A program made the position numbers and the translations under genes. A DNA stretch of 52,441 nucleotides from a virus (lineage: Duplodnaviria; Caudoviricetes), in the IMG/VR virus record IMGVR_UViG_3300030333_005141, positions 1 through 52,441 of that record, one strand, 5' to 3'. Of this stretch, positions 17,601 through 35,431 are shown one piece after another. The notes beneath the pieces are model-generated. The model was not told the origin of the DNA. It saw only the letters and a list, made by a program, of their open reading frames with translations, and did no database searches. The first letter of the stretch is position 1. Every line of letters starts with the position of its first letter.

Positions 17601-20600
17601 TTTATATGGTTGCAGATAAGGTTATATTTGTTACTAAAAAGGGTGGAAGAGAAATTGAATTACAAGATATAAACAAAAGAACAAATTATACAGGTAGTGC
17701 TAGATGGGATGATGCAGCTGCTGCTAAAGAAGGTTCTAAAATAAAATCTATGCTTTTAGAAGAAGCTCATAATAGAGGTTATTATTTTAATGGTGGTAAA
17801 GGTGATAGTGGAAAAATGTATTTCTTTAAATACCACCCTTCATCTCAAGGATTGACAGCTCCTCAATTAAAAACTAAAGTTGATGGTGTTCTTATTGAAT
17901 ATTACGAAGGATTAAAACAAAGACATATAGATAGTGGTTCAGAAAAACCATATATGAGTTTTAAACAATTTCAAGATCAATACAATGCAATGAAAAAAGA
18001 ATTTGTTGCTGAACATCAACTTAATCCTGCATTAAAATTTTCTACTGGCAGAATAAAAGAAGCAGAAAAATATTTTGATGAAGGTTTTTTATCTAATATT
18101 GCATGGGAAGCTGAATTATATGGTGTTTCTGCAACTAATGAAGGTTTTGCTAGATGGACTGGTTATAACTCTTCTATTAAAGATGCTAAAGGTTTTAACA
18201 AAAGAAACCAAATATGGATGACTGATGGATTTGAGGTTGATAAAAGCTTTTATGTAAACACAGTATCTAATATAATGAAAAATAAAGGGCATGATAATGC
18301 TCGTACTATTGCTGATGGTAAATTAAGATTTAGATTAATAAGAGATGCAGACCCTAAAGATATTGTATTAACAGATAAAGATAAAGCTGAAATATATACT
18401 GAATCAACTGATGGTATGATATTACTTGAAGAAAATCATATGGATGCTTTAAATCTTTCTATGGGTATGCCAAGTTCTGGTCAAAATAAATCGTTTATAG
18501 TAGATAGAGATCCAACTCATGGTGCTTTTTTGGGTAAATTTATGTTTCATAAAGCTAGTCCAGAAGCATCTAAGCATATGCGTGATGAAGGTGTTGAAAT
18601 GTATGTTTTTGATAGCGCAGCAAAAGAAAAAGGTTCAAGAGAATTTGGTGAATTAAAGGTTGATGATAATTTAAATGCAAAATATACTCACCCTACCCCT
18701 AAAGAAGTTGGTCCTTTATTTGAAGGTTCTGGAAAAGGTTATTATGAATTAAATATTGATGCTATCAAAGGTTCATTATCTGAAAAACAAAGTAGCCACA
18801 TGTTAGATGCTCAACTTATTCCTAAACAGGTTATGGCCAATCTTGTTCCTCATGCTCAATCTGAAATAGATAGGGCAGTAATGGATGATTTTTTCAATGA
18901 AACTATAGGTAAAAAATATAAAGGTAATGAACAATATAATGAATCATTTAAAAAAGCTCTTGAAAAAGATGTTCTATCTGAAACAGAGCAAGCAGAATTT
19001 TTAAGTAACTTTAATGATTTAGGTGTTATGGAAGTAATTGATGCTATTAAGAACCCAAATCACCCTGAGTTTGTTACTAAATTATATCAAAAGATTTTAG
19101 ATAAAAATATGAGCGATTTAGGGCTTGAATATGAGTCTGGGCAAGTAGATAGATATACTTATGAACAAGCTCATGCAGAAGCTGCTAATATTAGAACTGG
19201 TATAGATAGAATGATGGATGTTTATCCTTCTGTTGAAATCTTTTTATATAAAGATGTTAGAAACTTTATACAAACTGCAATGAAAAATTTTGTTGTTAAT
19301 AAAGTAATAAGACCTAAATGGGATTATTCAGTTTCAGTTAGAATGAGAGGTTTAGACCCGTGGTTAGCTAAACAAGATAATTTAAAAGATTTAAATATAG
19401 GTAAAGGTTTAATTGAAGATCCAATTACAGGTAAAAAGGTTCAATCTAAAACTTATCTTAGAAATAAATATGGTGTAGAAAATGCTGATGAATTGTTTTT
19501 CTTAGATGATAGATACAAACAAACAACTTGGGATATATCTGAATTTATTACACTTAAAAAGGGTCAAAAAAGTAAAATGACTTTAGAGGAAATATGGGAG
19601 CAGTATGGACCTAGAAGAGATGGGACATATCCTAGTGAAAGAATGAAGGAGTTTTTTAAAACAATATCTATTCGTGTTCCTATGGATTCTATATCTGGTG
19701 CTCATAAACTTACATTTGCTGGATTTACTGGCGTTGATGGTCATGGTGGAATATTTCATCCTAGAACTATGAGAGCATTGGGTGGTGCTGACCTTGATGG
19801 TGATAAAGCATTTGCTTTCTTTGGTATGAAACCTGAATGGAAAGAAATGTATCATAGTAATAAAATGGAATTTGCAAAAAAAGTTCCAGGTACTAATGAT
19901 TTTACTATTAGTGATAATAAAACAGCGGGAGTACCTAAAATAGGATTAGATATTTTAAAAGAAACATTTGCTGCTGATCCATCAAAAGCTGCAGATATGT
20001 TTATTATGGATAAATTAGAAGGTAAAAATACTGAAGAATTGACTTTACAAGACTTATTAACATTTACTACCGCTGGCGATAAAGATGTTATGGCATTAAA
20101 AGCAAGTCCTTTAGGTAAATATACTGTTAGTTCAAGAATGGACATCTCTCAACGTGCAGCAGAAGGTCGTGCTCATTTAGGTCCAGCAGTAAGCTCAAAA
20201 CAAATTTTAAATGCTATGTATAATGCTTTAACTAATAATGATGTTCAAAGATATGTTAATAAAAAAAGTAATTCAGACTCTATTTCTGCAGAAGAATTTG
20301 TTAAGTTAAGTGAAAAAGAACAACAAAAATACAAAGAAGACTATTCAGAAGAATTAACATTCATTCCAGAAGGTCATCAAGAACCAGTTCAAATTAGAAT
20401 TACACCAAGAGAAGATTTAACATATGCTAGAGAACTGCAAAGAGCACAAATTGCATTTGGTTCTGACCCGCTTGATGAATTAGGTTTATCTGGAATAGAT
20501 AGATATTTTGACCTTTCATGGCATAGTATGTTTAAAACAGAAATAGTTGGAGCTGATCCTAAAACGGTTGACCCTAATATTCTAAGAAGTTTTGAACCTC

Positions 20601-23600
20601 ATAAGCATGCTAAGCAAGGATTATATAAAATATTTAAAGATTTTAATAGCGCTTATTTTAGTAAAAATTGGGTAGATGGAAGAAGATGGCATGCTACTGA
20701 AATAGCAGAAATGTCTAGAGCTATTACAAAATTAAATAGTAATCAAATGGATACTATGTTACCTCAAATGGTTAAAATATTAAAAGATATAGATTTTTCT
20801 GATGATATATCATCTAGAATATCTCTTAACAAATTAGATGCATCTTATGATTATCATCAAAAAGAAGTTGTTCCTAGATTACAAGAGCTAAATAACAGAT
20901 TATTAGATGTTGATGGCAATAAAATATCTGGAGGTGTTTTAGGAAGAGGGTATTTAGATGCTAAAGGTGTAGATTGGTCTAAAGGTAAAGGTTTTGCCTC
21001 TCCAAAAAATCCAATTATAGATGTAATGCTTTCTAAAAAACTTTTCGATGTAAATGAACGGTTAAAATATATTTTACCAGAACATAATGGTGCAGTTAAT
21101 TTTGAAAAACTATTTAAAGACAACTTTAAAAAGACTAAAGATTTTTATTGGCAGGCTAACCCTTCGTTTTATAAATCTGAAATATTAAAAAATGGTGGTG
21201 TAGAAAAATATAATGAATATAGAAGGCATGAGCAAGATTTTAGAAGAGAACAAATAGAACAATTATATAGAGATGCAACTGAGTTTATGCAATATAATGC
21301 TATGGATAGAAATTCGGCATTAAGAACAATAGAAGCTTTAGAAGAGTATTATAATGCTGGTGGATCTGCAGAATTTGCTGAACGTATAAGCAAAGAAGTA
21401 GAATATATTAAGCAGGTCGATATGGAAAGTAAGGTACGTAGCATAAAAGAAGAAGTGCTTAATAGTGATGAATATAAGTCTTTAAGTGAAAAAGAACAGA
21501 GAAAAGTATATAACACTTTAGAAGTTAAAGAAAAAACTTCAGGTTTAAGTGATAGAGATGAAATTAATTTGTTAATTAGAAAGTTTAAGTATGCTAACTC
21601 TTGGAAAGCAAAATTTGAACCTAATATGCAAGATCCAGAGAACCCTGGTATGATGACTTTAGCAGAGTCTAAGTTATTTGACACACTTATGTTGTCCTCT
21701 TATTATAGAGGTCCAGGTAATCAGCAATTAGTACAATGGCAAAAATTACCTGCTAATATGAAAAAGTTATTAAGTCCCTATATAAAAACATTAAAATATG
21801 AAAACTCTGGAACTTATTTCCATAAAACGGGTTTAAGTAGCGCCTATATTACAGACGCTTCAATTAAAAACTTTTTAGAAGGATATGCTAATGAATTTAG
21901 AAAAGTATATACTGATCCATCTGAGTCTATTGATGTTGATTTTAAAAAGGTATTGACCACAAAAGAAAAAGAAACTAAAGATGGTGTTGAGGTCCCTAAA
22001 TTACTATACGAAGAGGATTATGTTGGTATGGGGACATTAAGAGAAAAGGCAGTAGCTAAATTAAATAAAGATGAAATTCAATTAGTTGATGAATTGGCTG
22101 GACATATACAACATTATAGAGATAGTTTTAATGAAGGTGGTTTAACTTTAAATAAAATTGCTAGAAAAGTTGTTAAAAAAAATGTAGATGCGATGACAAT
22201 AGATGATTACAGGGTCTTAAATGGATATTTTAGACAAATGAGATCAGGTAATATGTTTATTAGTCCAGGTAAACTAACAGCAGAAGGTGCTGTAAGGTTA
22301 TCTGAAAGGCATCATATGCTGTTTCCTAGAATGGTTTCTGATGAGCAAATTGTAAAAGACTTTAAACTATTTGAAGAAAGAGGTTTGTTCCAAAATTATA
22401 ACGGAGAATGGGTTGAAGGAATGACTGGCAGACCTTCTCATTTTATAGAACATACACAATATGCTATTGGAACTATTCAAGATTACGCTACAAAATTAAA
22501 AGAAGATGAAATTAAAGCGTTTAATGAAAGAGTAAGTGAATTAACAGGTTATGATACAATAGAGAATGGTGATGCCTTTATTGAGGTTGCTACTGCTTTA
22601 AAAGATTATAATTATGTAAGAGACCCTAAAACTACATTTAGATCAGAAAATGATCGTTCAGTAGCTACAGAAGTTGCTGTTAAAAATTTAAAGGAGGCGT
22701 ATGAAAAAGCTGATTGGGAAAATGTCAAGGATACTAAAATTAAAGTCACTGTCAAAGCTGAGCCTGGTCCAAAAGGCCAAGAAATGGGCGGTATCATTGA
22801 AAGGACTGGTAAAGAAATTGTTGCATCAATAGATAAAGTTTTAACAGAACGTTCTATTGAGGTAATGAAATGGATTAAAGGGGACCATTGGGAATATATT
22901 AATGGTCAATGGGTAGAAGGTAACAATCCGTTAAAAAAATTATTTAAAAAAGACAAAGAAGGCAATATACTGTACCATGGTGATTCTAATGAGGTCCCTA
23001 TTATAGATATGCAAAAATTTTCTCGTTTAATGTTTGACCATATGAAAGCTGGAAAACAAATGGATATGAAGCTTGGTATGGATAATATGAGATATATTAA
23101 TAGAAACTTAAGAATTGAAATCTTAAAAGAAGAAGCACAAAGACCAGAATTTACAGAAAAACAAAAAAATGGTATTTTGAAGATAATTAAAAATCTATCT
23201 GATAGGCCTATAGAATCAACAGGTGTGATAGATCATAAGAATTACCATCCTCATATGGTTGAAAATAAAACTTTTGCTAGAGAATCTTTAGTTAAACAAT
23301 TAAATAAATTGATTGAAAAAAGAGATAAAGGTGAAGTAGATGCAGATATATTTGACAAAGAAGCTGCAAGTTTAATACATAGACACAAAACATTAACTGG
23401 TGAATGGTATATTGATGATATAGTAGATAATCAATTGTTTGAGACTGCATTGCAAAAAATCAATGAAAAGAAAATGGATGCTCCAGAAATAAAGCAAATG
23501 CTTAGCTCTCCTACAACTGGAAATATGATGAGTCGTACATCTATGCTTGCGGGATTCAAAAGAGATTTAGGGGCATGGGATGTATATCAAGCTAATTTAA

Positions 23601-25096
23601 TTGATGCTTATTTTAGACAAATGGGGCAAGCGGTATCCACTCACATGTTAGGTCAATTTAAAAATCATTTAAAAAAGATTCATAAAACAGAACCCGAACA
23701 AGTTACTGCTTGGGGTAATTGGATGCAAGATTATATATCTAGAAGTTTAGGTTCTCCTTCTAAAATACCTGAAGCTTGGATGGACCCAAATAGTCCTATG
23801 AAAGTTAGAGGTACTCCTTATTCTTGGTTTGCTGATAATCACGTAGCAGATCTTCTTAATAGAGTTAAAAAGAATATGGGCTTTAAAGGTGATGAAAGAT
23901 TACCTGAAGAATTAAGAGGTATAAATGAATGGGATTTAAGACACTGGTCTAATTTAGAAGCTAAATATCAGCTTGCTACATTACTTGCTCACCCTAAATC
24001 TGCTGTAGCTAATATATTTGGTGGTACATTACATACTATACAATCTGTTGGTTGGAAAAATTGGAAGAATGCTAAGAATATTACTTGGCTTAAAAAAGCA
24101 ATAGGTGGAGATAAAGTTCCAACTTGGGAAACAATGAAAGATGCTGAAAAATGGACTATTGGTCATGGTGTTGTTCCTGACTTTATATTAAATGAGGCTC
24201 AAACTAATCCTATATTTAAAAAAGGAAAATATAAGGCATTTTTAGAAGATGCATTGAAAAAAATACAAAAAGATCCATCTGTTAAAGATGAAACTTTACT
24301 TGATATTGCTAAAAGACACAATATTACTAAAAGCATGTTTGATAAAGCTGCTTGGTTTATGAGAGAGCCTGAAAGAATTTTAAGAAGAGATTCTTTTATT
24401 GCTCATTATTTACAAGCCAGAGAATTGTATGGGCATGCTAATATGGAATTAAATCATCCTATGTTAATTCATATGGCTAAAAAAGGTGTACAAGCAACAC
24501 AGTTCTTATATAGTGCACCGTTCAGACCAGCATTTAGTAATACTTCTCTTGGTAAAGTTATGACAAGATTCCAGACTTGGGCTTGGAACTCTGTTAGATT
24601 TAGAAATGATGTATATAGAGCAGCGAAAATATATGGTTTTAGACAAGGTACTCCTGCTTTTGCAAGATATAAAAGACAAGTTCTTACAGACATGTTTGTA
24701 TTTGGCTTGGCTAATGTATTTGCTTATTCTTTATTTGAATCTGCAATGCCTCAACCTTATGGTTGGTTTCAAGATACTGCAGATTGGGTATTCGGAAACG
24801 AACAAGAAAGAGATAGAGCATTCTTTGGGCAGTGGCCAACCGCAGTAGCTCCGCTCCAAATGGTTACTCCGCCATCTTTGCGATTGGTCCCTGCCACATT
24901 CAATGCTGTATTAAATAATGATTTTAGTAGAATCAGTGATTACCAATTATGGACAATGTTTCCTTTTGGAAGATTAGCTAGAGATACTAAAGGTATTATT
25001 GAAAACCCAATGAGAACTGTTGAAAAGACAACTGGTATACCTTATATGCAATTTGCCCGAGAAGCTACCAAATACAGAGAAAAAGATGAAGATTAG
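14696..25096 (+). CDS. Giant virion protein containing a single-chain two-barrel (DPBB) DNA-dependent RNA polymerase
   Basis: 3466 aa; R1660-V-P then G1696GADLDGDK (metal-binding DxDGD loop); upstream T1238-D-G and downstream lysines fit the second barrel; last gene of the ejection cluster. Confidence 0.8.
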   Translation: MRDLQDLSSVVPEFKPFYNQDSTERLLNTYYQAPHLINDDLLSQIKDHAAHYNIPFEEERVQKDLGKQEFNLLRGIRQMGEGFFSGFTTFNVGEPSKNPYERIMRSVGELGGFVGYFPTAPLKALTAAKVLKSTALLDAARALRGNSVPLFLSRKATEKVAPIVSNTLKKAAPNIKNEAVQGAVKFMTDDKPSHIAEGAFNLGLASSISAWQLGVNEMLKAGLHGGVTGGVFRGVAEIFNKGGIPKTDILTGKQVLTASQKEDKILRAAASSLYDGLQSSYRGDTTPEQIYHYLLGAYFGANETTAGQAKYMKHVQKVEKKAASNAKALKRLDEDGKPYNWDTEIYDPELADPEGWKDLTKTEQEAVYDYILANHGTYGKQAMMTHRLMQEAGLEPNAEQLKLMGSNSKERYELDVAMNRINKKFETQKTADRAESIGRKFKVVPEAELTEDYIKNQGDRGYKKGKQQLVIQERSLVNIRTSKDRGPTNEDAAIPLKGAEIEKYNQSVNLDFPLFENELGTSVKYDAKSKKVIDDGSQAKAEFPLEFADKDINVEYKGKDNKVIKRDFKDWSPELYKIKEQVEEATGYNFDLARIDILDKDDYTKWEQENDPIFQRTDKRGPVQATVLIGEGRPLNLRHKDGNRNQIELNPGDIFLSKGVTNDNIKFKFDKSKKAGRTYRITFKRVKAKETPRALGEGQVLSDNILKLYTKGMSDDFLNFNKKAINTAFKVMEEKFPDSTVVAPENLGLHLKDTAPETYAYLMQKIQKLRAPVEKARQQLVQEDILDADFDKPDLDNDIGVMGEAVIQRKTNKFVSDYLSGQYEGIVDKTKRSLKIQELRGQLKDVLKENFKEFDINNSNKIDSDKFIADVEKKLGGIKFGEEARGDLRQLLMRQNQTKPLQKLSLNIDAKPSGIVKSGDTIIIGIQNPDGIYSKRNKAGVDEFQLESPKQIDHIWKEIAPKGEANDNVYMVADKVIFVTKKGGREIELQDINKRTNYTGSARWDDAAAAKEGSKIKSMLLEEAHNRGYYFNGGKGDSGKMYFFKYHPSSQGLTAPQLKTKVDGVLIEYYEGLKQRHIDSGSEKPYMSFKQFQDQYNAMKKEFVAEHQLNPALKFSTGRIKEAEKYFDEGFLSNIAWEAELYGVSATNEGFARWTGYNSSIKDAKGFNKRNQIWMTDGFEVDKSFYVNTVSNIMKNKGHDNARTIADGKLRFRLIRDADPKDIVLTDKDKAEIYTESTDGMILLEENHMDALNLSMGMPSSGQNKSFIVDRDPTHGAFLGKFMFHKASPEASKHMRDEGVEMYVFDSAAKEKGSREFGELKVDDNLNAKYTHPTPKEVGPLFEGSGKGYYELNIDAIKGSLSEKQSSHMLDAQLIPKQVMANLVPHAQSEIDRAVMDDFFNETIGKKYKGNEQYNESFKKALEKDVLSETEQAEFLSNFNDLGVMEVIDAIKNPNHPEFVTKLYQKILDKNMSDLGLEYESGQVDRYTYEQAHAEAANIRTGIDRMMDVYPSVEIFLYKDVRNFIQTAMKNFVVNKVIRPKWDYSVSVRMRGLDPWLAKQDNLKDLNIGKGLIEDPITGKKVQSKTYLRNKYGVENADELFFLDDRYKQTTWDISEFITLKKGQKSKMTLEEIWEQYGPRRDGTYPSERMKEFFKTISIRVPMDSISGAHKLTFAGFTGVDGHGGIFHPRTMRALGGADLDGDKAFAFFGMKPEWKEMYHSNKMEFAKKVPGTNDFTISDNKTAGVPKIGLDILKETFAADPSKAADMFIMDKLEGKNTEELTLQDLLTFTTAGDKDVMALKASPLGKYTVSSRMDISQRAAEGRAHLGPAVSSKQILNAMYNALTNNDVQRYVNKKSNSDSISAEEFVKLSEKEQQKYKEDYSEELTFIPEGHQEPVQIRITPREDLTYARELQRAQIAFGSDPLDELGLSGIDRYFDLSWHSMFKTEIVGADPKTVDPNILRSFEPHKHAKQGLYKIFKDFNSAYFSKNWVDGRRWHATEIAEMSRAITKLNSNQMDTMLPQMVKILKDIDFSDDISSRISLNKLDASYDYHQKEVVPRLQELNNRLLDVDGNKISGGVLGRGYLDAKGVDWSKGKGFASPKNPIIDVMLSKKLFDVNERLKYILPEHNGAVNFEKLFKDNFKKTKDFYWQANPSFYKSEILKNGGVEKYNEYRRHEQDFRREQIEQLYRDATEFMQYNAMDRNSALRTIEALEEYYNAGGSAEFAERISKEVEYIKQVDMESKVRSIKEEVLNSDEYKSLSEKEQRKVYNTLEVKEKTSGLSDRDEINLLIRKFKYANSWKAKFEPNMQDPENPGMMTLAESKLFDTLMLSSYYRGPGNQQLVQWQKLPANMKKLLSPYIKTLKYENSGTYFHKTGLSSAYITDASIKNFLEGYANEFRKVYTDPSESIDVDFKKVLTTKEKETKDGVEVPKLLYEEDYVGMGTLREKAVAKLNKDEIQLVDELAGHIQHYRDSFNEGGLTLNKIARKVVKKNVDAMTIDDYRVLNGYFRQMRSGNMFISPGKLTAEGAVRLSERHHMLFPRMVSDEQIVKDFKLFEERGLFQNYNGEWVEGMTGRPSHFIEHTQYAIGTIQDYATKLKEDEIKAFNERVSELTGYDTIENGDAFIEVATALKDYNYVRDPKTTFRSENDRSVATEVAVKNLKEAYEKADWENVKDTKIKVTVKAEPGPKGQEMGGIIERTGKEIVASIDKVLTERSIEVMKWIKGDHWEYINGQWVEGNNPLKKLFKKDKEGNILYHGDSNEVPIIDMQKFSRLMFDHMKAGKQMDMKLGMDNMRYINRNLRIEILKEEAQRPEFTEKQKNGILKIIKNLSDRPIESTGVIDHKNYHPHMVENKTFARESLVKQLNKLIEKRDKGEVDADIFDKEAASLIHRHKTLTGEWYIDDIVDNQLFETALQKINEKKMDAPEIKQMLSSPTTGNMMSRTSMLAGFKRDLGAWDVYQANLIDAYFRQMGQAVSTHMLGQFKNHLKKIHKTEPEQVTAWGNWMQDYISRSLGSPSKIPEAWMDPNSPMKVRGTPYSWFADNHVADLLNRVKKNMGFKGDERLPEELRGINEWDLRHWSNLEAKYQLATLLAHPKSAVANIFGGTLHTIQSVGWKNWKNAKNITWLKKAIGGDKVPTWETMKDAEKWTIGHGVVPDFILNEAQTNPIFKKGKYKAFLEDALKKIQKDPSVKDETLLDIAKRHNITKSMFDKAAWFMREPERILRRDSFIAHYLQARELYGHANMELNHPMLIHMAKKGVQATQFLYSAPFRPAFSNTSLGKVMTRFQTWAWNSVRFRNDVYRAAKIYGFRQGTPAFARYKRQVLTDMFVFGLANVFAYSLFESAMPQPYGWFQDTADWVFGNEQERDRAFFGQWPTAVAPLQMVTPPSLRLVPATFNAVLNNDFSRISDYQLWTMFPFGRLARDTKGIIENPMRTVEKTTGIPYMQFAREATKYREKDED

Positions 25097-28721: not shown

Positions 28722-30531
28722 CTGTCCTCCGTAATCTGAATGAAGGAGTCCATTCAAGTTCTGTCTCAAATAACTCTCCATCTGTGTTTTTAAATAGTTT
28801 GACAGCCTTTTTAGGGCTATCAGCTTGACCGTTTAGTCCAATTACTTTTCTGGATGCATTTTCTATTGCTCCGCTACCTTTACCTGCATATAAATCAAGT
28901 ACTTCGTTTCTACTATAATCTCTACTTACTTGAGATACCTGTATTATAATAAGGTCGTTGTTAACTGCCATGTTGGATAAACCGTGGGATATATATTTTA
29001 TCTGTTCATACTCGCCTCTCACCGATGGAGGAGTATCAACTAAATCAATATAATCAACGATTACCATAGCAGGTTGCAACTCTGTTATTTTTGTCTGTAT
29101 CTGTTCAAGCGTAGGAGCTACAGTTTGAATTGTTATATGCGCAACTTTATCCTTTACTAATGGATAAATACTTTGATAATTGGACGACACATTGTCTTTT
29201 GATTGATTAGATGCAATCTGAAGATTTCTTCTATGCATATACCAACCTGCCAATTCTAAAGATAAATACAACGTTGGGATTTGTAGATTTGTATCAATTC
29301 TATCGTTTAAATGGTCATAACCTAGAGCAATATTTTGTGCTAAGGTTGTTTTGCTTGACCCTGTGGGTCCAAAGATAGTGATTAAATCTCCTGGGTAAAA
29401 TTGACAATCAGCCTCAACACCTAGTGCCTTACCTAAATTGTAACTTTTACCTGTAAAATCTGTTGTTAATCTATCTGTTAACTGTTTTTGTAGTTCTACA
29501 TTATCCATAATATCTACTAAATAGTCTTTTCTTTTATAATGAATACATTTTGGATTACAATGTTCTTTCATTAAATGATCTTGGCATCCGTATTGGTATC
29601 CTTTATTATAAGCATACTCTACTTGAGATACTACTTCCTGTTCATTTAGACTACCGTCATTCCATTCTAATAATGCAGCTTTTGCAGCTCTAGAAGATAT
29701 ACCGCTTCTTCTATAATGAGAAACTATTCTTAATAATGTTGTGTGTCTGCTACCAACTTGTGGTCCAGCGCCATACATTCTTTGAACACATGTTACAACT
29801 TTATTTGGTTCTGATACTTTCCCCATAGGTTTTGATGTAATAGAAGCTTCTACTATATGATCTTCTAATTCTCCATCACCTACTAACTCTTCGTAAGGAA
29901 ATTCAGTTCTTGCTGTCTTTGCTAAATCGTGTATTTGCTGCCAAGTACATTGTACTGCTTCTTTATAAGTAAGTGGTACTTTATATAAGCCAGTTTTCTT
30001 GTTTATTGTATGAGCTACACGATATAGTCCAGTTCTAGTATAAACCATAGGGTCTATTTCTGGAAACAATTTCATCATAGTTTCTTTCATATGAAAAGGT
30101 AAATCTTCACTAGCTGTGAAGTTAAAAACACTATTTGGTATTATTATATGGTAACCAGTTCCTGAAAAATATACTCTGAAGTTTTCTGGACTTAATTCAA
30201 GGTCATTTATTAATTTATAAACTATTCCTTGCATTTTATCAAGAGTAAATTTATCAGTGTTTTGTTCTCTATCAATATCAATCAAAATATTGTCAATAGA
30301 GCGAGGTCCATAATAATGTTTTATAGTGTTTTTAGAATTTCCATAATCATAAGCATCTTCATTATAAAGATACATAGATCTATATAACGGGACACTATTT
30401 ATATGTTTAGCAAGTTCCTGTTTTGGTATAAATACCCCCCGTTTACGAGGGGTATCTATTGCTATTTCTATATAATTATAGATTTTCAACTGAGATACCT
30501 GATGCATCAAAGTTTTCTGAGTCTGTACCAT
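28711..30531 (-). CDS. Primase-helicase: AEP primase/polymerase, primase C-terminal Cys-rich domain, DnaB/RecA-type helicase
   Basis: LIDID and FSGTGYH (AEP motifs I and II); GSRHTTL (PriCT-like); YGC..(H)C...C; Walker A GPTGSSKT, VIVDYI, SQVSR, GSGAIE. The true start may be a TTG near 30490. Confidence 0.85.
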   Translation of the reverse strand: MVQTQKTLMHQVSQLKIYNYIEIAIDTPRKRGVFIPKQELAKHINSVPLYRSMYLYNEDAYDYGNSKNTIKHYYGPRSIDNILIDIDREQNTDKFTLDKMQGIVYKLINDLELSPENFRVYFSGTGYHIIIPNSVFNFTASEDLPFHMKETMMKLFPEIDPMVYTRTGLYRVAHTINKKTGLYKVPLTYKEAVQCTWQQIHDLAKTARTEFPYEELVGDGELEDHIVEASITSKPMGKVSEPNKVVTCVQRMYGAGPQVGSRHTTLLRIVSHYRRSGISSRAAKAALLEWNDGSLNEQEVVSQVEYAYNKGYQYGCQDHLMKEHCNPKCIHYKRKDYLVDIMDNVELQKQLTDRLTTDFTGKSYNLGKALGVEADCQFYPGDLITIFGPTGSSKTTLAQNIALGYDHLNDRIDTNLQIPTLYLSLELAGWYMHRRNLQIASNQSKDNVSSNYQSIYPLVKDKVAHITIQTVAPTLEQIQTKITELQPAMVIVDYIDLVDTPPSVRGEYEQIKYISHGLSNMAVNNDLIIIQVSQVSRDYSRNEVLDLYAGKGSGAIENASRKVIGLNGQADSPKKAVKLFKNTDGELFETELEWTPSFRLRRTDGY

Positions 30532-31081
30532 TCATAACAACGTTATTTGCAGGTTTACTCATATCTTCAGGAGCCTCTTTCAAGAAACCTTTAGATCTTA
30601 AAAACTCAATGTAACTTTCAAGCTCTTTTTCACTTCCAGCACTTACAGGTAGTACTTTGTTGTGAACTCTTGTATAAGCTTGTCCGTTTTTAGATAACTC
30701 TTTAAATATAAATATAGTTAGATTTACTCCACAATATTTATTTAAATGATCACAAATATTAGAAATTGGTTGACCATCTTCAGTTTCCCATTTTCCGTCT
30801 TGATTGACACCACCTTGTTCTCCAAGTGCATCTAGGAAAAATGTGATTCTTTTTAATAAAGTACAGTCTTTAATCCTGCCGTCTGCTTCTCTATCAAATG
30901 AACCTGCTATTTTCATAACTCTAGGATACTGAGAGCCTTCTACTTCAAATTCAACATTTAAGTAGACATCTGCCCAACTCCATTTACTTGAATCGTCAGT
31001 GATATTGACTATTTTACCTGTTTTTATTCCTAGCCAATCACCACCGCCTCCGCTTTTTATTTCAGAACGCATTATTGCCAT
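30476..31081 (-). CDS. Putative phage single-stranded DNA-binding protein
   Basis: OB-like beta pattern with an acidic flexible tail; lies between the Sak4-like ATPase and the primase-helicase. Confidence 0.55.
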   Translation of the reverse strand: MAIMRSEIKSGGGGDWLGIKTGKIVNITDDSSKWSWADVYLNVEFEVEGSQYPRVMKIAGSFDREADGRIKDCTLLKRITFFLDALGEQGGVNQDGKWETEDGQPISNICDHLNKYCGVNLTIFIFKELSKNGQAYTRVHNKVLPVSAGSEKELESYIEFLRSKGFLKEAPEDMSKPANNVVMNGTDSENFDASGISVENL

Positions 31082-32193: not shown

Positions 32194-32874
32194 TTAACAA
32201 GCTATTTCTTCTGTGATCTGTGGTTTTACGAGATTTTCCGTTCGTAAATTTACAGGACCTAACGACCCCCAAATATACGAATAATATAGGTTATTTTGCA
32301 ACACATTAAATGCTTGCGCTAACCCATATGATGCTGCCAAACCTCCACAAAATATGGTATGTTTAGCTGTGCATGATTCATCTGGAATATCTTTTGAAGG
32401 AACATAAGAATCCATGAAATAATCGTCATCTCTTGTAACGGTTATTATTTCAAACCCTAATGCTCCCATCCTCATATCAATCAGAAATTCTCTGTCTGGA
32501 TTTTCTTTCCATTGTTTATATACTGCAAGTCTACACTCCATATTATCGGGTGTAAGAAATACTTTATTTTCTAATGGTAATCCAGTTTGCCAAAATGTTG
32601 GACTTGCTTTGACATTACACTTACTATTTAATGTGTTAAGTGTTTCTTTTGCTGCTGTTACTTTAAAAAGATTTAAATACTTTTCTGGCCATGATGTTGT
32701 GGATAAATTATGTTCCTCTAACTGATCAGGGTCCCAGACAGTTATTTCTTTAAATCCCATTATTGCAGCATTTTGTAATAGGGCTGAACCAATACCTCCA
32801 GCCCCAATTACAGTAATCTTATCTAATCTTGATTGATCGATAAGGTCTTTGTTTCTAAGGTAACGATCTGCCAT
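32194..32874 (-). CDS. ThiF/E1-like Ubl-activating enzyme
   Basis: RYLR arginine finger, G24AGGIG, DPD..EEHNL, K71, PDN...R, IDMRMG; candidate catalytic C168 (ESCTAK); no Zn-binding CxxC pairs. Confidence 0.92.
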   Translation of the reverse strand: MADRYLRNKDLIDQSRLDKITVIGAGGIGSALLQNAAIMGFKEITVWDPDQLEEHNLSTTSWPEKYLNLFKVTAAKETLNTLNSKCNVKASPTFWQTGLPLENKVFLTPDNMECRLAVYKQWKENPDREFLIDMRMGALGFEIITVTRDDDYFMDSYVPSKDIPDESCTAKHTIFCGGLAASYGLAQAFNVLQNNLYYSYIWGSLGPVNLRTENLVKPQITEEIAC

Positions 32875-33748
32875 CTTCGTCTACTCCTATCTCTTCTAAG
32901 CGTTTATCTCTAACTTCTGTTTTTATTCTTCCTCTATCCCAATCTAGCATTATGTTGTCATATTCTATCCAAGTGCCATAGTCTAAAGGTTCTTCTTTTA
33001 AGCCATAAGATTGCATATATCCGATTTCATCAACATGGTCGTTGTATCGTTCTGCTTGTGCTTCTATTGCATCTTTTTCTTTTTTGGCTGAAAAAGCTTC
33101 TTTTTTGTTTAACTGATAACTAGATGAGTCAAAAAGAGTTCCTTGTTGCCGTCTTCCAAATCCATATCTTGTAATCGACAATGTTTTCTCTTCTTTTTTG
33201 GCGTTCTTTTTGATGTTCTTCTGCTGCTGTTTCCAGTCCTTATCTATATTGATAACTTCTTCAGCTTTGACATCAATTCCTTGAACAATTTCTATTTGTC
33301 CAAATTGATCGGGAAAACTAAAACCAAAGTAAAACTCTTTTTGTGGTTTAGTTGATACTACTAATGAGTAATAAAAGTTTTCATTAGCACCGTCTTCACA
33401 TTGTTGTTCATCAGTAGGTGAATAATATGCTCCCATACTATGATGTGAATGTATGTTTCCTTGTTCCCATTTTTTGCCAATTTCAGGATATTGTTTTCTT
33501 AATTTACCCCATATCTCTTGAAGTTTATCTCCATCCCAATCAGTTGATGTTGCATCACCTAAATGTAAGGGGTGAAAATACTCTAAAGTTATTTTTAAAG
33601 GGTATTTTTTCTTTCCAGGTAGATTTTGATATTCTACTGAATACCATGCTGGTCCAGACCATTCTCTACCTTTATTCTGTTGAAGAAAATAGCGTACCTT
33701 GTTCAACATTTGGTTGGTTATTAATAGTGAAGGTTTCTTTAAGCTCAC
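32855..33748 (-). CDS. JAB/JAMM (MPN+) metalloprotease, deubiquitinase-like
   Basis: E29 ... H100-S-H102-x7-S110-x2-D113 (HSHHSMGAYYSPTD). Confidence 0.9.
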   Translation of the reverse strand: MSLKKPSLLITNQMLNKVRYFLQQNKGREWSGPAWYSVEYQNLPGKKKYPLKITLEYFHPLHLGDATSTDWDGDKLQEIWGKLRKQYPEIGKKWEQGNIHSHHSMGAYYSPTDEQQCEDGANENFYYSLVVSTKPQKEFYFGFSFPDQFGQIEIVQGIDVKAEEVINIDKDWKQQQKNIKKNAKKEEKTLSITRYGFGRRQQGTLFDSSSYQLNKKEAFSAKKEKDAIEAQAERYNDHVDEIGYMQSYGLKEEPLDYGTWIEYDNIMLDWDRGRIKTEVRDKRLEEIGVDEDGRSLP

Positions 33749-35096
33749 GCTTTAACCTCCTTTCATCTTTGTTTAATTGTTCAAGTGATTTCTTTAAAGC
33801 TATACTTTTTAAGTTGTTATATTTAAATATCAATCCATCTGTATCTTCTGCAGTTTTTATTGACTTTAACCAACTTCTTCCATTAGCTTTATCAGGGTTG
33901 TTCTTTCTAAGCATTACAAGATATTGTCCTATTTTTGTACCAGCTGATTTTAATTCTCCAGCAAATTCATATTCTGTTGAATTATTCTCAAAAGGTTTAA
34001 GTAGTTCTTTTAACTCTTTAATATCTTCTTCATGCTCAGCTATAGTTGCGCTATATCTATCGCTTACTATCCATCTATATGAATTGCCTCTTCGTAATTC
34101 ATTTAGTTTATAAGCCATATCCCTTAATTTACCAGATAATTCTGGATCATTTATTCCATCAAAATCCATAAATAATTTTGTAAAGAATATTTTATTAAAG
34201 AATAAAGACTCAACAAGAGACATTTCCCCTATTTCCATAGCTAAATAAATATAACCCATCATCTTTTGATAGTTTACTTTATCTGAAAATCCATAATCCC
34301 CTTCATAAGAATATCTATTTAATTCACCTCTAGTGAAATGCTTAGTTCTTAGATAGGGTATATCAAAAAATCTAAATAATTCATTAAACTTTTTTGATAA
34401 ATGTCCTTGCACTTCAAATTTTCCATAACATGGAATATCTTTTGGAAAGTTCCATCGCATTGGATCTTCTCCTAAAGATACAATATCTAAAGAGTGAGGG
34501 TCATCTACTTCTGATTCAAAAGTTTCCCTTACCTCAATTGGTGTATGAAGTTGATATTTAATAAACTTCTTTTTCCAATGAGTTCCAGCTACATATGTAC
34601 TTCTACCATTATAAGATTCTAAATAGTTTCTTATATATTGTATAAATAATAGAAAATTTCTATTACTCCAATGTGTTGATAAATCTGTAGCAAATGAACC
34701 TAAGCAAGGTGATCCGTCAGATATATGAGGGTGTGATGCATATTCAGTTTTTATTTCAGTTCCATTTGTATATAAATAATAAAATTTAAATACTGGAGCT
34801 TCATCTATTACGGCTACATGTACCCAAAAATCTCCCATATGAAGATGTGGTCTATACTTAACAACAACATCTTTTATTTGTATGAGCGTTACATATTCTT
34901 GTATTACATCATTTGTGCCACTTTCTTGATTCCAAACATTCCTTGTAACGTTAACAACATCAAATTTATAGTTTTTCTCTATTAATTTTGCTTGTTTAGC
35001 ATAAGGTAATGGTGGAGCTTCAGAATGACTAAATGTAGAGTCCCATTCTAATAATGTTGTTTCTACTAAACTTAAGTCAAAAGGTTTAAGATCCAT
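33672..35096 (-). CDS. Prokaryotic E2-like Ubl-conjugating enzyme with long C-terminal extension
   Basis: H122PHISDGSPC131LG, analogous to E2 HPN-x7-C, followed by helices and YLESYN...Y; flanked by Ubl and JAB genes. Confidence 0.78.
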   Translation of the reverse strand: MDLKPFDLSLVETTLLEWDSTFSHSEAPPLPYAKQAKLIEKNYKFDVVNVTRNVWNQESGTNDVIQEYVTLIQIKDVVVKYRPHLHMGDFWVHVAVIDEAPVFKFYYLYTNGTEIKTEYASHPHISDGSPCLGSFATDLSTHWSNRNFLLFIQYIRNYLESYNGRSTYVAGTHWKKKFIKYQLHTPIEVRETFESEVDDPHSLDIVSLGEDPMRWNFPKDIPCYGKFEVQGHLSKKFNELFRFFDIPYLRTKHFTRGELNRYSYEGDYGFSDKVNYQKMMGYIYLAMEIGEMSLVESLFFNKIFFTKLFMDFDGINDPELSGKLRDMAYKLNELRRGNSYRWIVSDRYSATIAEHEEDIKELKELLKPFENNSTEYEFAGELKSAGTKIGQYLVMLRKNNPDKANGRSWLKSIKTAEDTDGLIFKYNNLKSIALKKSLEQLNKDERRLKRELKETFTINNQPNVEQGTLFSSTE

Positions 35097-35185: not shown

Positions 35186-35431
35186 CTAGTTGCCTGACTT
35201 ATTCTTTGCTTTCATGATCAGAATAGTATCATTTTCTACTAGTTTACCTGCTGGTGGAACTGTTCTTTCATCACCGTCTTCTCCAATAACTTGCACTACA
35301 CTATCAGCCATATCCACATCATAAGCTCTTAATACATCGCTTAATTTCTCAAATTTACCTGCTTCTAGCTTGTTATTTTTATTCCATGATGAAACTTCTA
35401 CGTTTACACCGTTATTTGCTGTTCTAGGCAT
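35186..35431 (-). CDS. Ubiquitin-like (beta-grasp) protein
   Basis: 81 aa; beta-beta-alpha(KLSDVLRAY)-beta...LVENDTILI pattern typical of beta-grasp folds; ends KSGN; first gene of the E2-JAB-E1 cluster. Confidence 0.78.
   Translation of the reverse strand: MPRTANNGVNVEVSSWNKNNKLEAGKFEKLSDVLRAYDVDMADSVVQVIGEDGDERTVPPAGKLVENDTILIMKAKNKSGN

What the first reader, a model, noticed from the sequence alone, without database searches (positions are those of the whole stretch)
33131..33701. Both the E2 and the JAB protease carry a QGTLF beta-clamp-type motif
Seen: QGTLF at E2 aa 466-470 (33687-33701, near the C-terminus) and JAB aa 202-206 (33131-33145, in a low-complexity linker after the catalytic domain). 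The codons differ (CAA GGT ACG CTA TTT vs CAA GGA ACT CTT TTT), so the match is at protein level. The E2 copy is kept even though it lies inside the 77-nt overlap with the JAB gene. Known: QL[S/D]LF and related QxxLF peptides bind the bacterial DnaN sliding clamp. Inference: writer and eraser may both dock on the host clamp, a bacterial parallel to PCNA ubiquitination. This fits a phage that has no DNA polymerase and would need the host replisome. A different shared partner is also possible.
Basis: partly seen in the sequence, partly recalled or inferred. Interest (0 to 1): 0.85.

Follow-up and report, generated by a model that had tools for sequence, protein, structure and literature searches.

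The report
Shared clamp-hook peptide on phage E2/JAB
In a marine phage with its own ubiquitin-like tagging kit, the tag-attaching enzyme and the tag-removing protease share a short flexible docking peptide that changes in step across related phages and resembles the hook bacterial proteins use to grip the DNA sliding clamp, though the binding partner is unproven.

Summary
QGTLF sits at E2-like aa 466-470 (33687-33701) and JAB aa 202-206 (33131-33145), with different codons. One shared pentapeptide is weak evidence alone: 1782 of 20000 shuffles give one.

Relatives make it real. 28 of 29 E2 homologues end in Q-x-[TS]-L-F. 67 of 71 JAB homologues have Q-x-x-[LMI]-[FW] at the same linker site. 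Both copies lie in the only low-confidence stretches of otherwise confident AlphaFold2 models. Across 66 non-redundant related phage loci the spelling changes in both proteins together (QGTLF/QATLF, NQLSAF/NQISAF, SQLSL/NQLSL). It occurs in no other ORF scanned.

New caveat: the E2 copy is read in the +2 frame over JAB's conserved N-terminal helix (N-K-V-R-Y-F). That overlap favours Q-x-x-L-F. Synonymous resampling gives the motif in only 3.4% of trials on average, against 48 of 66 observed.

The spellings fit the beta-clamp-binding grammar (QxxLF, QLxLxL). Five of five complete related genomes have no detectable DNA polymerase or clamp. A model with E. coli DnaN gave only weak support (0.56; best control 0.00).

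Verdict: a shared, selected docking peptide (about 0.9). The host clamp is the best candidate partner (about 0.5), but binding is untested and the host is unknown. This scan noted clamp-adjacent phage Ubl cassettes before, on other DNA.

The parts
33687..33701 (-). E2-like protein aa 466-470, QGTLF, in the disordered C-terminal tail
   Evidence: Tail aa 459-474 has pLDDT below 50. 28 of 29 homologues keep Q.[TS]LF.
33131..33145 (-). JAB protease aa 202-206, QGTLF, in the inter-domain linker
   Evidence: The only segment of the JAB model with pLDDT below 50 is aa 192-213. 67 of 71 homologues keep Q..[LMI][FW] at this aligned site.
33672..35096 (-). E2-like gene (474 aa). HPH-x6-C131 is invariant, followed by a large helical C-terminal region and the tail.
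   Evidence: invariant A120 H122 P123 H124 P130 C131 G133. No Pfam, NCBIfam or PHROG family. No Foldseek match at E<=0.001.
32855..33748 (-). JAB/MPN+ metalloprotease gene (297 aa): catalytic domain, disordered linker, C-terminal helical domain
   Evidence: Weak Prok-JAB match. Foldseek gives 133 matches at E<=0.001, led by BRCC36, Rpn11 and CSN5.
33672..33748 (-). 77-nt E2/JAB overlap; the last 25 E2 codons and the first 25 JAB codons share this DNA
   Evidence: An overlap of 53-221 nt (53-134 in all but one) is present in every one of the 66 non-redundant related loci.
33686..33703 (-). JAB aa 16-21 (N-K-V-R-Y-F, N-terminal helix), whose +2 frame reads the E2 QGTLF
   Evidence: Helix 12-24 in the JAB model.
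33756..33762 (-). AAGGAGG Shine-Dalgarno site for the JAB GTG start, inside the E2 coding sequence
33110..33175 (-). JAB linker aa 192-213, predicted disordered
35186..35431 (-). Ubl gene (81 aa); ends ...KNKSG-N
   Evidence: G80 is invariant and one variable residue follows it in 16 of 16 aligned sequences.
32194..32874 (-). Minimal E1 (ThiF-type, 226 aa)
   Evidence: Pfam ThiF 4e-17. Below the curated cut-offs of all NCBIfam families.

Best explanation
The E2-like enzyme and the JAB protease of this phage's Ubl-E2-JAB-E1 operon each carry one copy of the same short linear docking motif. Its core is Q-x-x-[L/M/I]-[F/W], here QGTLF, on a flexible tail (E2) or linker (JAB). Both copies are under selection and are kept alike within a phage, so they address one binding pocket on a shared partner.

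The most likely partner is the host DnaN sliding clamp. The peptide would sit in the hydrophobic cleft used by QL[SD]LF/QxxLF clients. This would place Ubl attachment (E2) and Ubl maturation or removal (JAB) on clamps loaded at replicating DNA. The phage has its own primase-helicase but no detectable polymerase or clamp, so it must borrow the host's.

Shown: the motif's presence, conservation, disorder, co-variation, exclusivity to these two proteins, and selection beyond the overlap constraint.

Inferred: that the pocket is DnaN's, and that the Ubl targets are the clamp or proteins on it.
For: 1. Conservation. 28 of 29 E2 homologues (26-38% identity apart from one 95% relative) end in Q.[TS]LF. 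67 of 71 JAB homologues keep Q..[LMI][FW] at one aligned site in an otherwise unalignable linker.
2. Disorder. E2 aa 459-474 and JAB aa 192-213 are the low-confidence parts of models with mean pLDDT 81.5 and 85.5 (E2 aa 1-6 is also low).
3. Motif counts in 66 non-redundant related loci. 48 E2 tails fit Q..[LIM][FW] or Q..[LIM].[FL] (shuffles: mean 2.4, max 8 of 500 runs). 37 JAB linkers fit it (shuffles: mean 4.5, max 11).
4. Co-variation. QATLF/QATLF, QGTLF/QGTLF, GQGSL/GQGSL, NQLSA(F)/NQ[LI]SA(F), SQLSL/NQLSL. The mean within-phage best 5-mer score is 16.39, against 14.57 across phages. 0 of 5000 re-pairings reach the observed sum; relatedness was not controlled.
5. Exclusivity. 36 of 37 hits to a loose clade-A pattern in 794 ORFs of 21 sources lie in these two sites. 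In 52 loci, the clade-specific cores occur only in the E2-like tail and the JAB linker.
6. Selection on the E2 copy. With JAB's residues fixed and its codons resampled, the E2 frame stays open in a mean 7.0% of trials and shows the motif in a mean 3.4%.
7. Clamp grammar. The CBM is 'QL[S/D]LF or more generally QxxLF', with positions 1, 4 and 5 critical; QLSLPL is a tight binder (PMC12309361, passages). Phage Mu MuC uses QHDLF and QPDLF (PMC12867686, passages). Other clades here read QLSLESF, QLSAF, HQLSLGAL and QTNLPL. E. coli DnaE's internal motif reads GQADMFG, against the common JAB spelling GQATLFG.
8. Dependence on the host replisome. PF00712, PF00476, PF00136 and PF07733 are absent from 5 of 5 complete (CheckV 100%) related genomes. 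The operon abuts AAA_24, a 201-aa protein and the primase-helicase in 75-88 of 92 loci.
9. Complex model, weak support. E2 aa 436-474 with E. coli DnaN and the Ubl scored 0.56; the best of 3 controls scored 0.00. One of those controls replaced DnaN and kept the Ubl. The mark was reached by 58 of 80 solved complexes and 2 of 110 mismatched pairs. At 0.60 or under it was reached by only 7 of the 80 and by both passing mismatches. Runs agree in at least 65% of contacts and the partner's pLDDT is at least 54. Clamp-peptide complexes are solved, so this may be recall of likeness.
Against: - No binding was measured. The host is unknown and E. coli DnaN is a stand-in.
- Tight co-variation of the two copies is not needed for a degenerate, universal clamp pocket. 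It fits a co-evolving phage partner at least as well.
- 18 of 66 E2 tails and 29 of 66 JAB linkers miss the strict grammar.
- Some clades pair unlike peptides: DLP[QTR]F-COOH with QTT[IM]F or QTQIF; LPFESL with QV[ST]IW; QSELF with QGSFGW. One JAB (L019) shows no motif.
- Trp at the last position (19 of 71 JAB homologues have non-LF variants, many of them LW) is, from recall, unusual for clamp motifs.
- No other phage protein carries the motif, not even the primase-helicase. The phage therefore does not use it as a general replisome tag.
- The E2 motif is partly a frame echo of JAB's helix.
- The E2 assignment itself rests on the HPH-x6-C motif, its topology and operon position. Foldseek and PDB sequence searches gave nothing.
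Confidence: 0.5

Rival explanations
1. Private address tag. The peptide docks on a phage-encoded protein, which co-evolves with it. Candidates are the minimal E1 (which lacks an E2-recruiting domain), the Ubl (as Atg8-interacting motifs sit on Atg3 and Atg4; recalled), the primase-helicase, AAA_24 or the 201-aa protein.
For: - The two copies are respelled together from clade to clade, as expected if the pocket itself changes.
- The motif is confined to the two Ubl enzymes.
- E1, AAA_24, the 201-aa protein and the primase-helicase are syntenic in 75-88 of 92 loci.
Against: - The variants stay within the clamp-motif grammar rather than drifting freely. Several independently match canonical spellings (QLSL, QLSLGAL, QTNLPL).
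- No phage candidate was singled out by any test here.
Confidence: 0.3
2. The peptide docks on another host hub, not DnaN. Examples are a protein of the SSB-tail interactome, a clamp-loader subunit or a protease adaptor.
For: - In three clades the E2 tail ends DLPQF, DLPTF or DLPRF-COOH. Relatives of the neighbouring 201-aa protein end DDxPF-COOH. Both resemble the bacterial SSB C-terminal tip (recalled). These phages therefore do seem to copy host hub peptides.
Against: - Most tails and linkers begin with an invariant Q and lack the acidic run and terminal Pro-Phe of SSB tips.
- The JAB copy is internal, not C-terminal.
Confidence: 0.12
3. No function. The E2 QGTLF is only the +2-frame shadow of JAB's conserved N-K-x-x-Y-F helix, and the JAB linker copy is a chance or low-complexity match.
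For: - JAB N-K-V-R-Y-F forces C-AA, N-TA and T-TT in the E2 frame.
- A shared pentapeptide arises in 8.9% of shuffles (1782 of 20000).
Against: - Resampling JAB codons gives the motif in a mean 3.4% of trials and an open frame in a mean 7.0%.
- The linker copy is not overlapped, is conserved in 67 of 71 homologues, and tracks the E2 spelling.
Confidence: 0.03

Closest known systems
Bacterial beta-clamp-binding motif clients (Pol II, III alpha, IV, V, Hda, MutS/MutL) and phage Mu MuC
   Same: A short Q-x-x-L-F or Q-L-x-L-x-L peptide on a flexible terminus or internal loop, with positions 1, 4 and 5 critical (PMC12309361, passages). MuC is a phage protein with two such motifs, QHDLF and QPDLF (PMC12867686, passages). 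E. coli DnaE reads GQADMFG.
   Different: Known clients are polymerases, repair and licensing factors and a transcription factor. None is a ubiquitin-like conjugating enzyme or a deubiquitinase-type protease. Here, binding is only inferred.
Bil (BilABCD) and related bacterial Ubl-E1-E2-JAB operons; operon types of Iyer, Burroughs and Aravind 2006
   Same: Four genes: a small Ubl ending in Gly plus extra residue(s), an E2-like protein with a Cys, a JAB peptidase and a ThiF-type E1. The Bil preprints were seen only as search listings with the start of the abstract. PMC1779556 was seen as passages.
   Different: - The cassette is encoded by a lytic-type phage inside its replication module, not by a bacterial defence island.
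- The E2 is 474 aa with no family match.
- The E1 is minimal (226 aa).
- The 2006 paper has no occurrence of 'sliding clamp' or 'replication'.
Eukaryotic PCNA ubiquitination and deubiquitination (Rad6-Rad18; USP1-UAF1), recalled
   Same: A writer and an eraser of a ubiquitin-type mark both work at the sliding clamp.
   Different: No homology of the targeting parts. Here both enzymes would use the same client peptide. No conjugation to the clamp is shown.
Atg8 system: AIM/LIR peptides on the E2 (Atg3) and the protease (Atg4), recalled
   Same: The E2 and the processing protease of one Ubl pathway each carry a short hydrophobic docking peptide for a shared partner.
   Different: There the partner is the Ubl itself and the motif is [WFY]xx[LIV]. 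Here the motif starts with an invariant Gln. The one model run with the Ubl present but DnaN replaced gave no score, which is not evidence against Ubl binding.
Ubl/E2-like/JAB/E1 cassettes of Flavobacterium phage FpV4 and crAss-like Bacteroides phage DAC15
   Same: The same gene order and an E2-like/JAB overlap, next to replication genes (toprim, uracil-DNA glycosylase). The JAB N-terminal domain is 29-33% identical.
   Different: No Q-x-x-L-F in their E2-like tails or JAB linkers. Their Ubl carries a long extension after Gly-Gly.

Membership tests
Beta-clamp-binding motif (CBM) client | Pentapeptide Q-L-[S/D]-L-F (generally QxxLF) or hexapeptide QLxLxL, with Q1, L4 and F5 conserved | tested here: met
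   QGTLF in both proteins. Q, L and F are at least 90% conserved in the E2 alignment. 48 of 66 E2 tails and 37 of 66 JAB linkers fit the grammar, against 2.4 and 4.5 expected from shuffles. The definition is from PMC12309361, passages. Position 2 is G or A rather than L.
Beta-clamp-binding motif (CBM) client | Motif lies on a flexible terminus or exposed loop | tested here: met
   pLDDT is below 50 for E2 aa 459-474 and JAB aa 192-213, within confident models.
Beta-clamp-binding motif (CBM) client | LF-dependent binding to the hydrophobic cleft of DnaN | tested here: inconclusive
   Only a model, with E. coli DnaN as a stand-in. Weak support: 0.56 against a best control of 0.00. The mark was reached by 58 of 80 solved complexes and 2 of 110 mismatches; at 0.60 or under, by only 7 of the 80 and by both mismatches. 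At least 65% of contacts agree between runs and the partner's pLDDT is at least 54. No contacts were reported. It may reflect memory of solved clamp-peptide complexes. Measuring binding is not possible with these tools.
Beta-clamp-binding motif (CBM) client | A clamp is available and relevant to the protein's setting | tested here: met
   No phage clamp or polymerase in 5 of 5 complete related genomes. The operon lies in the replication module. The host clamp itself was not identified.
Bil-type / prokaryotic Ubl conjugation operon | ThiF-type E1 adenylating enzyme | tested here: met
   Pfam ThiF 4e-17, 62.6 bits, above the cut-off of 28.1. Matches E1-E2 models of PADLOC at up to 5.2e-11.
Bil-type / prokaryotic Ubl conjugation operon | UBC-fold E2 with a catalytic Cys | tested here: inconclusive
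   Invariant HPH-x6-C131 and a helix, four to five strands, Cys loop, helices topology in the model. But no Pfam, NCBIfam or PHROG match, no Foldseek match at E<=0.001 and no PDB sequence match. The only lead is an Atlas cluster in which 15% of members carry Prok-E2_D.
Bil-type / prokaryotic Ubl conjugation operon | JAB/MPN+ peptidase | tested here: met
   Foldseek: 133 matches at E<=0.001, led by BRCC36, Rpn11 and CSN5. H100, S101, H102, S110 and D113 are invariant.
Bil-type / prokaryotic Ubl conjugation operon | Small beta-grasp Ubl with a C-terminal Gly | tested here: inconclusive
   G80 is invariant and followed by one variable residue in 16 of 16 sequences. The fold was not modelled and there is no family match.
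Bil-type / prokaryotic Ubl conjugation operon | Bacterial anti-phage defence role | tested here: not met
   The operon is encoded by the phage itself: a complete 52-kb virus record with terminase, portal and capsid genes. No relative was found in 185,579 species genomes.
PRTRC system (NCBIfam TIGR03734-03742) | Matches to the PRTRC family models above their cut-offs | tested here: not met
   PRTRC_ThiF scored 18 bits against a cut-off of 144.75. PRTRC_A scored 13.2 bits against 101.8.

The most novel reading that the evidence does not exclude
A virus-run counterpart of PCNA ubiquitination in bacteria. During infection the phage E2 and JAB dock on host beta-clamps through client-mimicking peptides. 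They reversibly attach the phage Ubl to the clamp or to clamp-bound host replisome, repair or licensing proteins. This would take over the host Pol III machinery for a phage that has no detectable polymerase of its own. The E2's clamp hook would have arisen by overprinting on the JAB gene's first helix.
Probability: 0.25. Interest if true: 0.9.

Novelty: new variant of a known kind. Interest (0 to 1): 0.72.

Why it matters
Phage-encoded ubiquitin-like conjugation kits are barely described and their targets are unknown. The characterised bacterial systems are anti-phage defences. A conserved, co-varying docking peptide on both the conjugating enzyme and the protease gives a concrete handle on where such a kit acts. 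It turns 'what does a phage Ubl system tag?' into a peptide pull-down experiment.

If the partner is the sliding clamp, this would be the first link between ubiquitin-like modification and the bacterial replisome. None of the 12 top-ranked of 30 papers holding three of the terms DnaN, ubiquitin-like, ThiF and JAB contains 'DnaN', and one search found none either.

The locus is also a clear example of a functional peptide motif created and maintained by overprinting on a neighbouring gene.

Tried and rejected
- Host identification failed. There are no tRNAs. No cultured relative was found by E2, terminase, primase-helicase, capsid or giant-protein tblastn. No relative of the E2 was found in species genomes. 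I therefore could not compare the motif with the host's own DnaE or DinB motifs, and E. coli DnaN had to stand in.
- I tried to reach bacterial genomes through the genome search. 'of' needs a G handle. E. coli K-12 only got a W handle without relatives. I dropped that line.
- A single-sequence E2 scan of viral contigs found nothing. The alignment-based scan worked.
- E2 fold confirmation failed: no Foldseek match at E<=0.001, no hit in the PDB sequence search, and the VIA libraries were unavailable.
- I looked for a cryptic phage clamp among unannotated ORFs with relaxed Pfam thresholds and found nothing clamp-like.
- I rejected the 'chance pentapeptide' and pure 'frame echo' readings.
- I considered a four-chain complex job with E1 as well, but left E1 out to avoid diluting the partner's score. 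E1 as the partner is therefore untested. In the one job run, the control with DnaN replaced and the Ubl kept scored 0.00. I count that as no information about Ubl binding.
- The Dalrymple 2001 paper that defined the motif is recalled. The PMC id I tried, from memory, was not held.
- Supplementary files were not requested.
Full report
**What is there**

The window is a complete 52,441-bp virus record (CheckV 100%). It has a terminase, portal and capsid module and a minus-strand early arm. In that arm lie four tightly packed genes:
- an 81-aa Ubl ending KSG-N;
- a 474-aa E2-like protein;
- a 297-aa JAB protease;
- a 226-aa ThiF-type E1.

They are followed directly by an AAA_24 ATPase, a 201-aa protein and a primase-helicase (PriCT-1 plus DnaB_C).

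QGTLF occurs at E2 aa 466-470 (33687-33701) and JAB aa 202-206 (33131-33145), with different codons. It occurs nowhere else in six frames.

**Is it more than chance?**

Within this genome alone, no. 1782 of 20000 shuffles of the two proteins share some pentapeptide. The case rests on relatives.

- A search of 5.8 billion proteins gave 29 E2 homologues, 26-38% identical except one at 95%, and 71 JAB homologues.
- 28 of the 29 E2 homologues end in Q-x-[TS]-L-F, typically DGQGTLFSENL. The exception is P0015, 383 aa, with an unalignable C-terminus.
- At one aligned position of a JAB linker that otherwise cannot be aligned, 48 of 71 have Q..LF, 19 more have Q..[LMI][FW], and 4 have neither.
- AlphaFold2 models are confident overall (mean pLDDT 81.5 and 85.5). 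They place both copies in the stretches with pLDDT below 50: E2 aa 459-474, after a long helix, and JAB aa 192-213, between the catalytic domain and a C-terminal helical domain. E2 aa 1-6 is the only other such stretch.

This is the usual signature of a short linear docking motif.

**Wider family and co-variation**

Alignment-based scans of IMG/VR gave 20 loci for the E2 and 213 for the JAB, of which 80 were kept.

The order JAB, E1, AAA_24, 201-aa protein, primase-helicase is kept in 75-90 of 92 sources. An E2-like ORF always runs into the JAB gene.

In the 66 non-redundant loci that hold both the tail and the linker:
- 48 E2 tails fit a clamp-motif regular expression, against a mean of 2.4 after shuffling;
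- 37 JAB linkers fit it, against a mean of 4.5 after shuffling.

The spelling differs between clades, and the two proteins of one phage tend to agree:
- QATLF with QATLF;
- QGTLF with QGTLF;
- GQGSL with GQGSL;
- NQLSAF with NQ[LI]SAF;
- SQLSLESF with NQLSLV.

Re-pairing tails and linkers never reached the observed similarity (0 of 5000). That test does not correct for relatedness.

The clade-specific cores occur in no other ORF of 52 loci. 36 of 37 hits to a loose clade-A pattern among 794 ORFs lie at these two sites.

The agreement is not universal:
- Three clades end the E2 in DLP[QTR]F while the JAB has QTT[IM]F or QTQIF.
- Others pair LPFESL with QV[ST]IW, or QSELF with QGSFGW.
- One JAB (L019) shows no motif.

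**The overlap**

The long JAB start is genuine. A strong Shine-Dalgarno site precedes it in most of the clades examined. JAB residues 1-10 are modelled as structured. The last 25 E2 codons therefore share DNA with the first 25 JAB codons.

The E2 QGTLF is the +2 frame of JAB N16-K-V-R-Y-F21, part of the first helix of the JAB domain. Given N-K-x-x-Y-F, the other frame reads C-AA (Gln), x, x, N-TA (Leu, Ile or Val) and T-TT (Phe). It means that conservation of the E2 copy could be a by-product.

I tested that by keeping each JAB's residues and redrawing its codons from local usage. The E2 frame then stays open to its real stop in a mean 7.0% of trials. It shows the motif in a mean 3.4%, against 48 of 66 observed. 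For example, Asn must be AAC although AAT is used 69% of the time, and AAT would create a stop in the E2 frame.

The JAB linker copy is not overlapped with any supported gene. I conclude that both copies are selected as peptides. The E2 hook probably arose by overprinting.

**Who is the partner?**

The features that stay constant are a Gln, two small or polar residues, then Leu/Met/Ile and Phe/Trp. Sometimes there is a one-residue spacer, as in QVPLSF, QQQISF and QGSFGW.

This is the grammar of the bacterial clamp-binding motif. PMC12309361 (passages read) describes it as 'QL[S/D]LF or more generally QxxLF', with positions 1, 4 and 5 critical and QLSLPL as a tight binder. Clades here independently use QLSLESF, QLSAF, HQLSLGAL and QTNLPL. 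The commonest JAB spelling, GQATLFG, is close to the internal motif of E. coli Pol III alpha, GQADMFG, which I read from the K-12 gene.

A phage precedent exists. Mu MuC binds the host clamp through QHDLF and QPDLF (PMC12867686, passages).

The setting fits. Neither DnaN nor a family A, B or C polymerase is detectable in 5 of 5 complete related genomes, where the same searches ring in the control genomes. These phages therefore probably replicate with the host holoenzyme.

One complex-prediction job was available. I gave it E. coli DnaN, the Ubl and E2 aa 436-474.
- The verdict was weak support: score 0.56, best of three controls 0.00.
- One control kept the tail and the Ubl but replaced DnaN.
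- The mark was reached by 58 of 80 solved complexes and 2 of 110 mismatched pairs.
- At 0.60 or under it was reached by only 7 of the 80 and by both mismatches that passed.
- Runs agree in at least 65% of contacts and the partner's pLDDT is at least 54.
- The job differs from the calibration.

Because clamp-peptide complexes are solved, this mainly restates that the peptide looks like a clamp motif.

**What argues against the clamp**

- If the clamp pocket is universal and tolerant, the two copies need not match each other so closely. Matching suggests tuning to a particular pocket. That could be a host-specific clamp, a need for balanced affinity of writer and eraser, or a co-evolving phage protein.
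- Candidates for a private partner are the minimal E1, which has no domain to recruit an E2, and the Ubl, by analogy with Atg8-interacting motifs on Atg3 and Atg4 (recalled). The replication proteins next door are also candidates. None was tested, except that the Ubl rode along in the one job.
- The host is unknown.
- Trp at the last position and the DLPxF tails lie outside the classical motif.

I put the shared-partner claim at about 0.9, the clamp at about 0.5, a phage-encoded partner at about 0.3 and another host hub at about 0.1.

**Comparison with what is known**

The cassette works like the Bil and related Ubl-E1-E2-JAB operons. The JAB fold is confirmed (133 Foldseek matches at E<=0.001) and the E1 is a ThiF. 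Three things set it apart:
- The E2 is a new, family-less 474-aa protein whose UBC nature is inferred, not shown.
- The system is phage-borne.
- It fails the PRTRC model cut-offs.

Iyer, Burroughs and Aravind 2006 (passages) describe phage Ubl-JAB pairs only in tail assembly, and never mention clamps or replication. Searches for papers combining DnaN or the sliding clamp with ubiquitin-like, ThiF or JAB terms found none that link them. The jumbo-phage survey PMC7824862 has no JAB, ThiF or Ubl mention.

Related cassettes without the motif exist in Flavobacterium phage FpV4 and in crAss-like phages.

Earlier unchecked notes of this scan report Ubl cassettes beside clamp genes in other phages and a plasmid, and many clamp-hook peptides in phages that carry their own clamp. 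They are leads, not evidence. They make a link between phage Ubl systems and clamps a recurring suspicion of this scan.

**Verdict**

- Novelty: a new variant of known kinds. It combines a clamp-client-type peptide with ubiquitin-like machinery, and adds an overprinting origin.
- Interest is high because it gives the first experimentally tractable clue to the target site of a phage-encoded Ubl system.

Noticed in passing
window 30476-31081 (-); relatives in L044, L052, L054, L070 and others: The 201-aa protein between AAA_24 and the primase-helicase has no family match. In many related phages it ends in DDxPF, SQIPF or PSVPF-COOH, like the C-terminal tip of bacterial SSB (recalled). In this clade it ends [IL]D[IV]A[NS]L (here ISVENL). 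It may be a phage SSB that copies the host SSB hub peptide.
   Followed up: partly
L038, L039, L041 (E2-like C-termini): Three clades end the E2-like protein in IADLPQF, IADLPTF or LEDLPRF-COOH, an SSB-tip-like ending, instead of Q-x-x-L-F. Their JAB linkers keep QTT[IM]F or QTQIF.
   Followed up: no
window 35186-35200 (-) and alignment A4: The Ubl ends in an invariant Gly followed by exactly one variable residue (N, K, R, I or V) in 16 of 16 sequences. It is made as a pro-form that needs one residue removed.
   Followed up: partly
L021 (FpV4, KT876724.1 59376-71747) and L022 (DAC15, MT074136.1 71681-84046): Flavobacterium phage FpV4 and the crAss-like Bacteroides phage DAC15 carry unannotated cassettes. 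Each has a Ubl with a long extension after Gly (KSGG in FpV4, KSG-A in DAC15), an E2-like protein with HSH...C, a JAB and a ThiF E1, next to toprim and uracil-DNA glycosylase genes. All are annotated as hypothetical or as 'thiamine biosynthesis protein'.
   Followed up: partly
whole window: 23 of 35 ORF starts have GGAG, GAGG or AGGA within 4-20 nt upstream, against 8.3% of random 17-mers. Such strong Shine-Dalgarno use argues, from recalled knowledge, against a Bacteroidota host, despite the JAB's nearest cultured relatives being Bacteroidota phages.
   Followed up: partly
window 33756-33762 (-): The JAB ribosome-binding site AAGGAGG is encoded inside the conserved E2 helix (...KDERRLKRE...). 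This stretch therefore serves the E2 protein, JAB translation initiation and, a few codons on, both reading frames.
   Followed up: partly
L021 7873-8961: The FpV4 363-aa protein after the E1 ends ...EEPQVEDLPF-COOH, another SSB-tip-like tail.
   Followed up: no
window 14696-25096 (+): A part of the 3466-aa ORF (nt 17696-21295, 1200 aa) has no tblastn match in 50,697 phage records. An earlier first-reader note suggests a virion RNA polymerase there. I did not test this.
   Followed up: no
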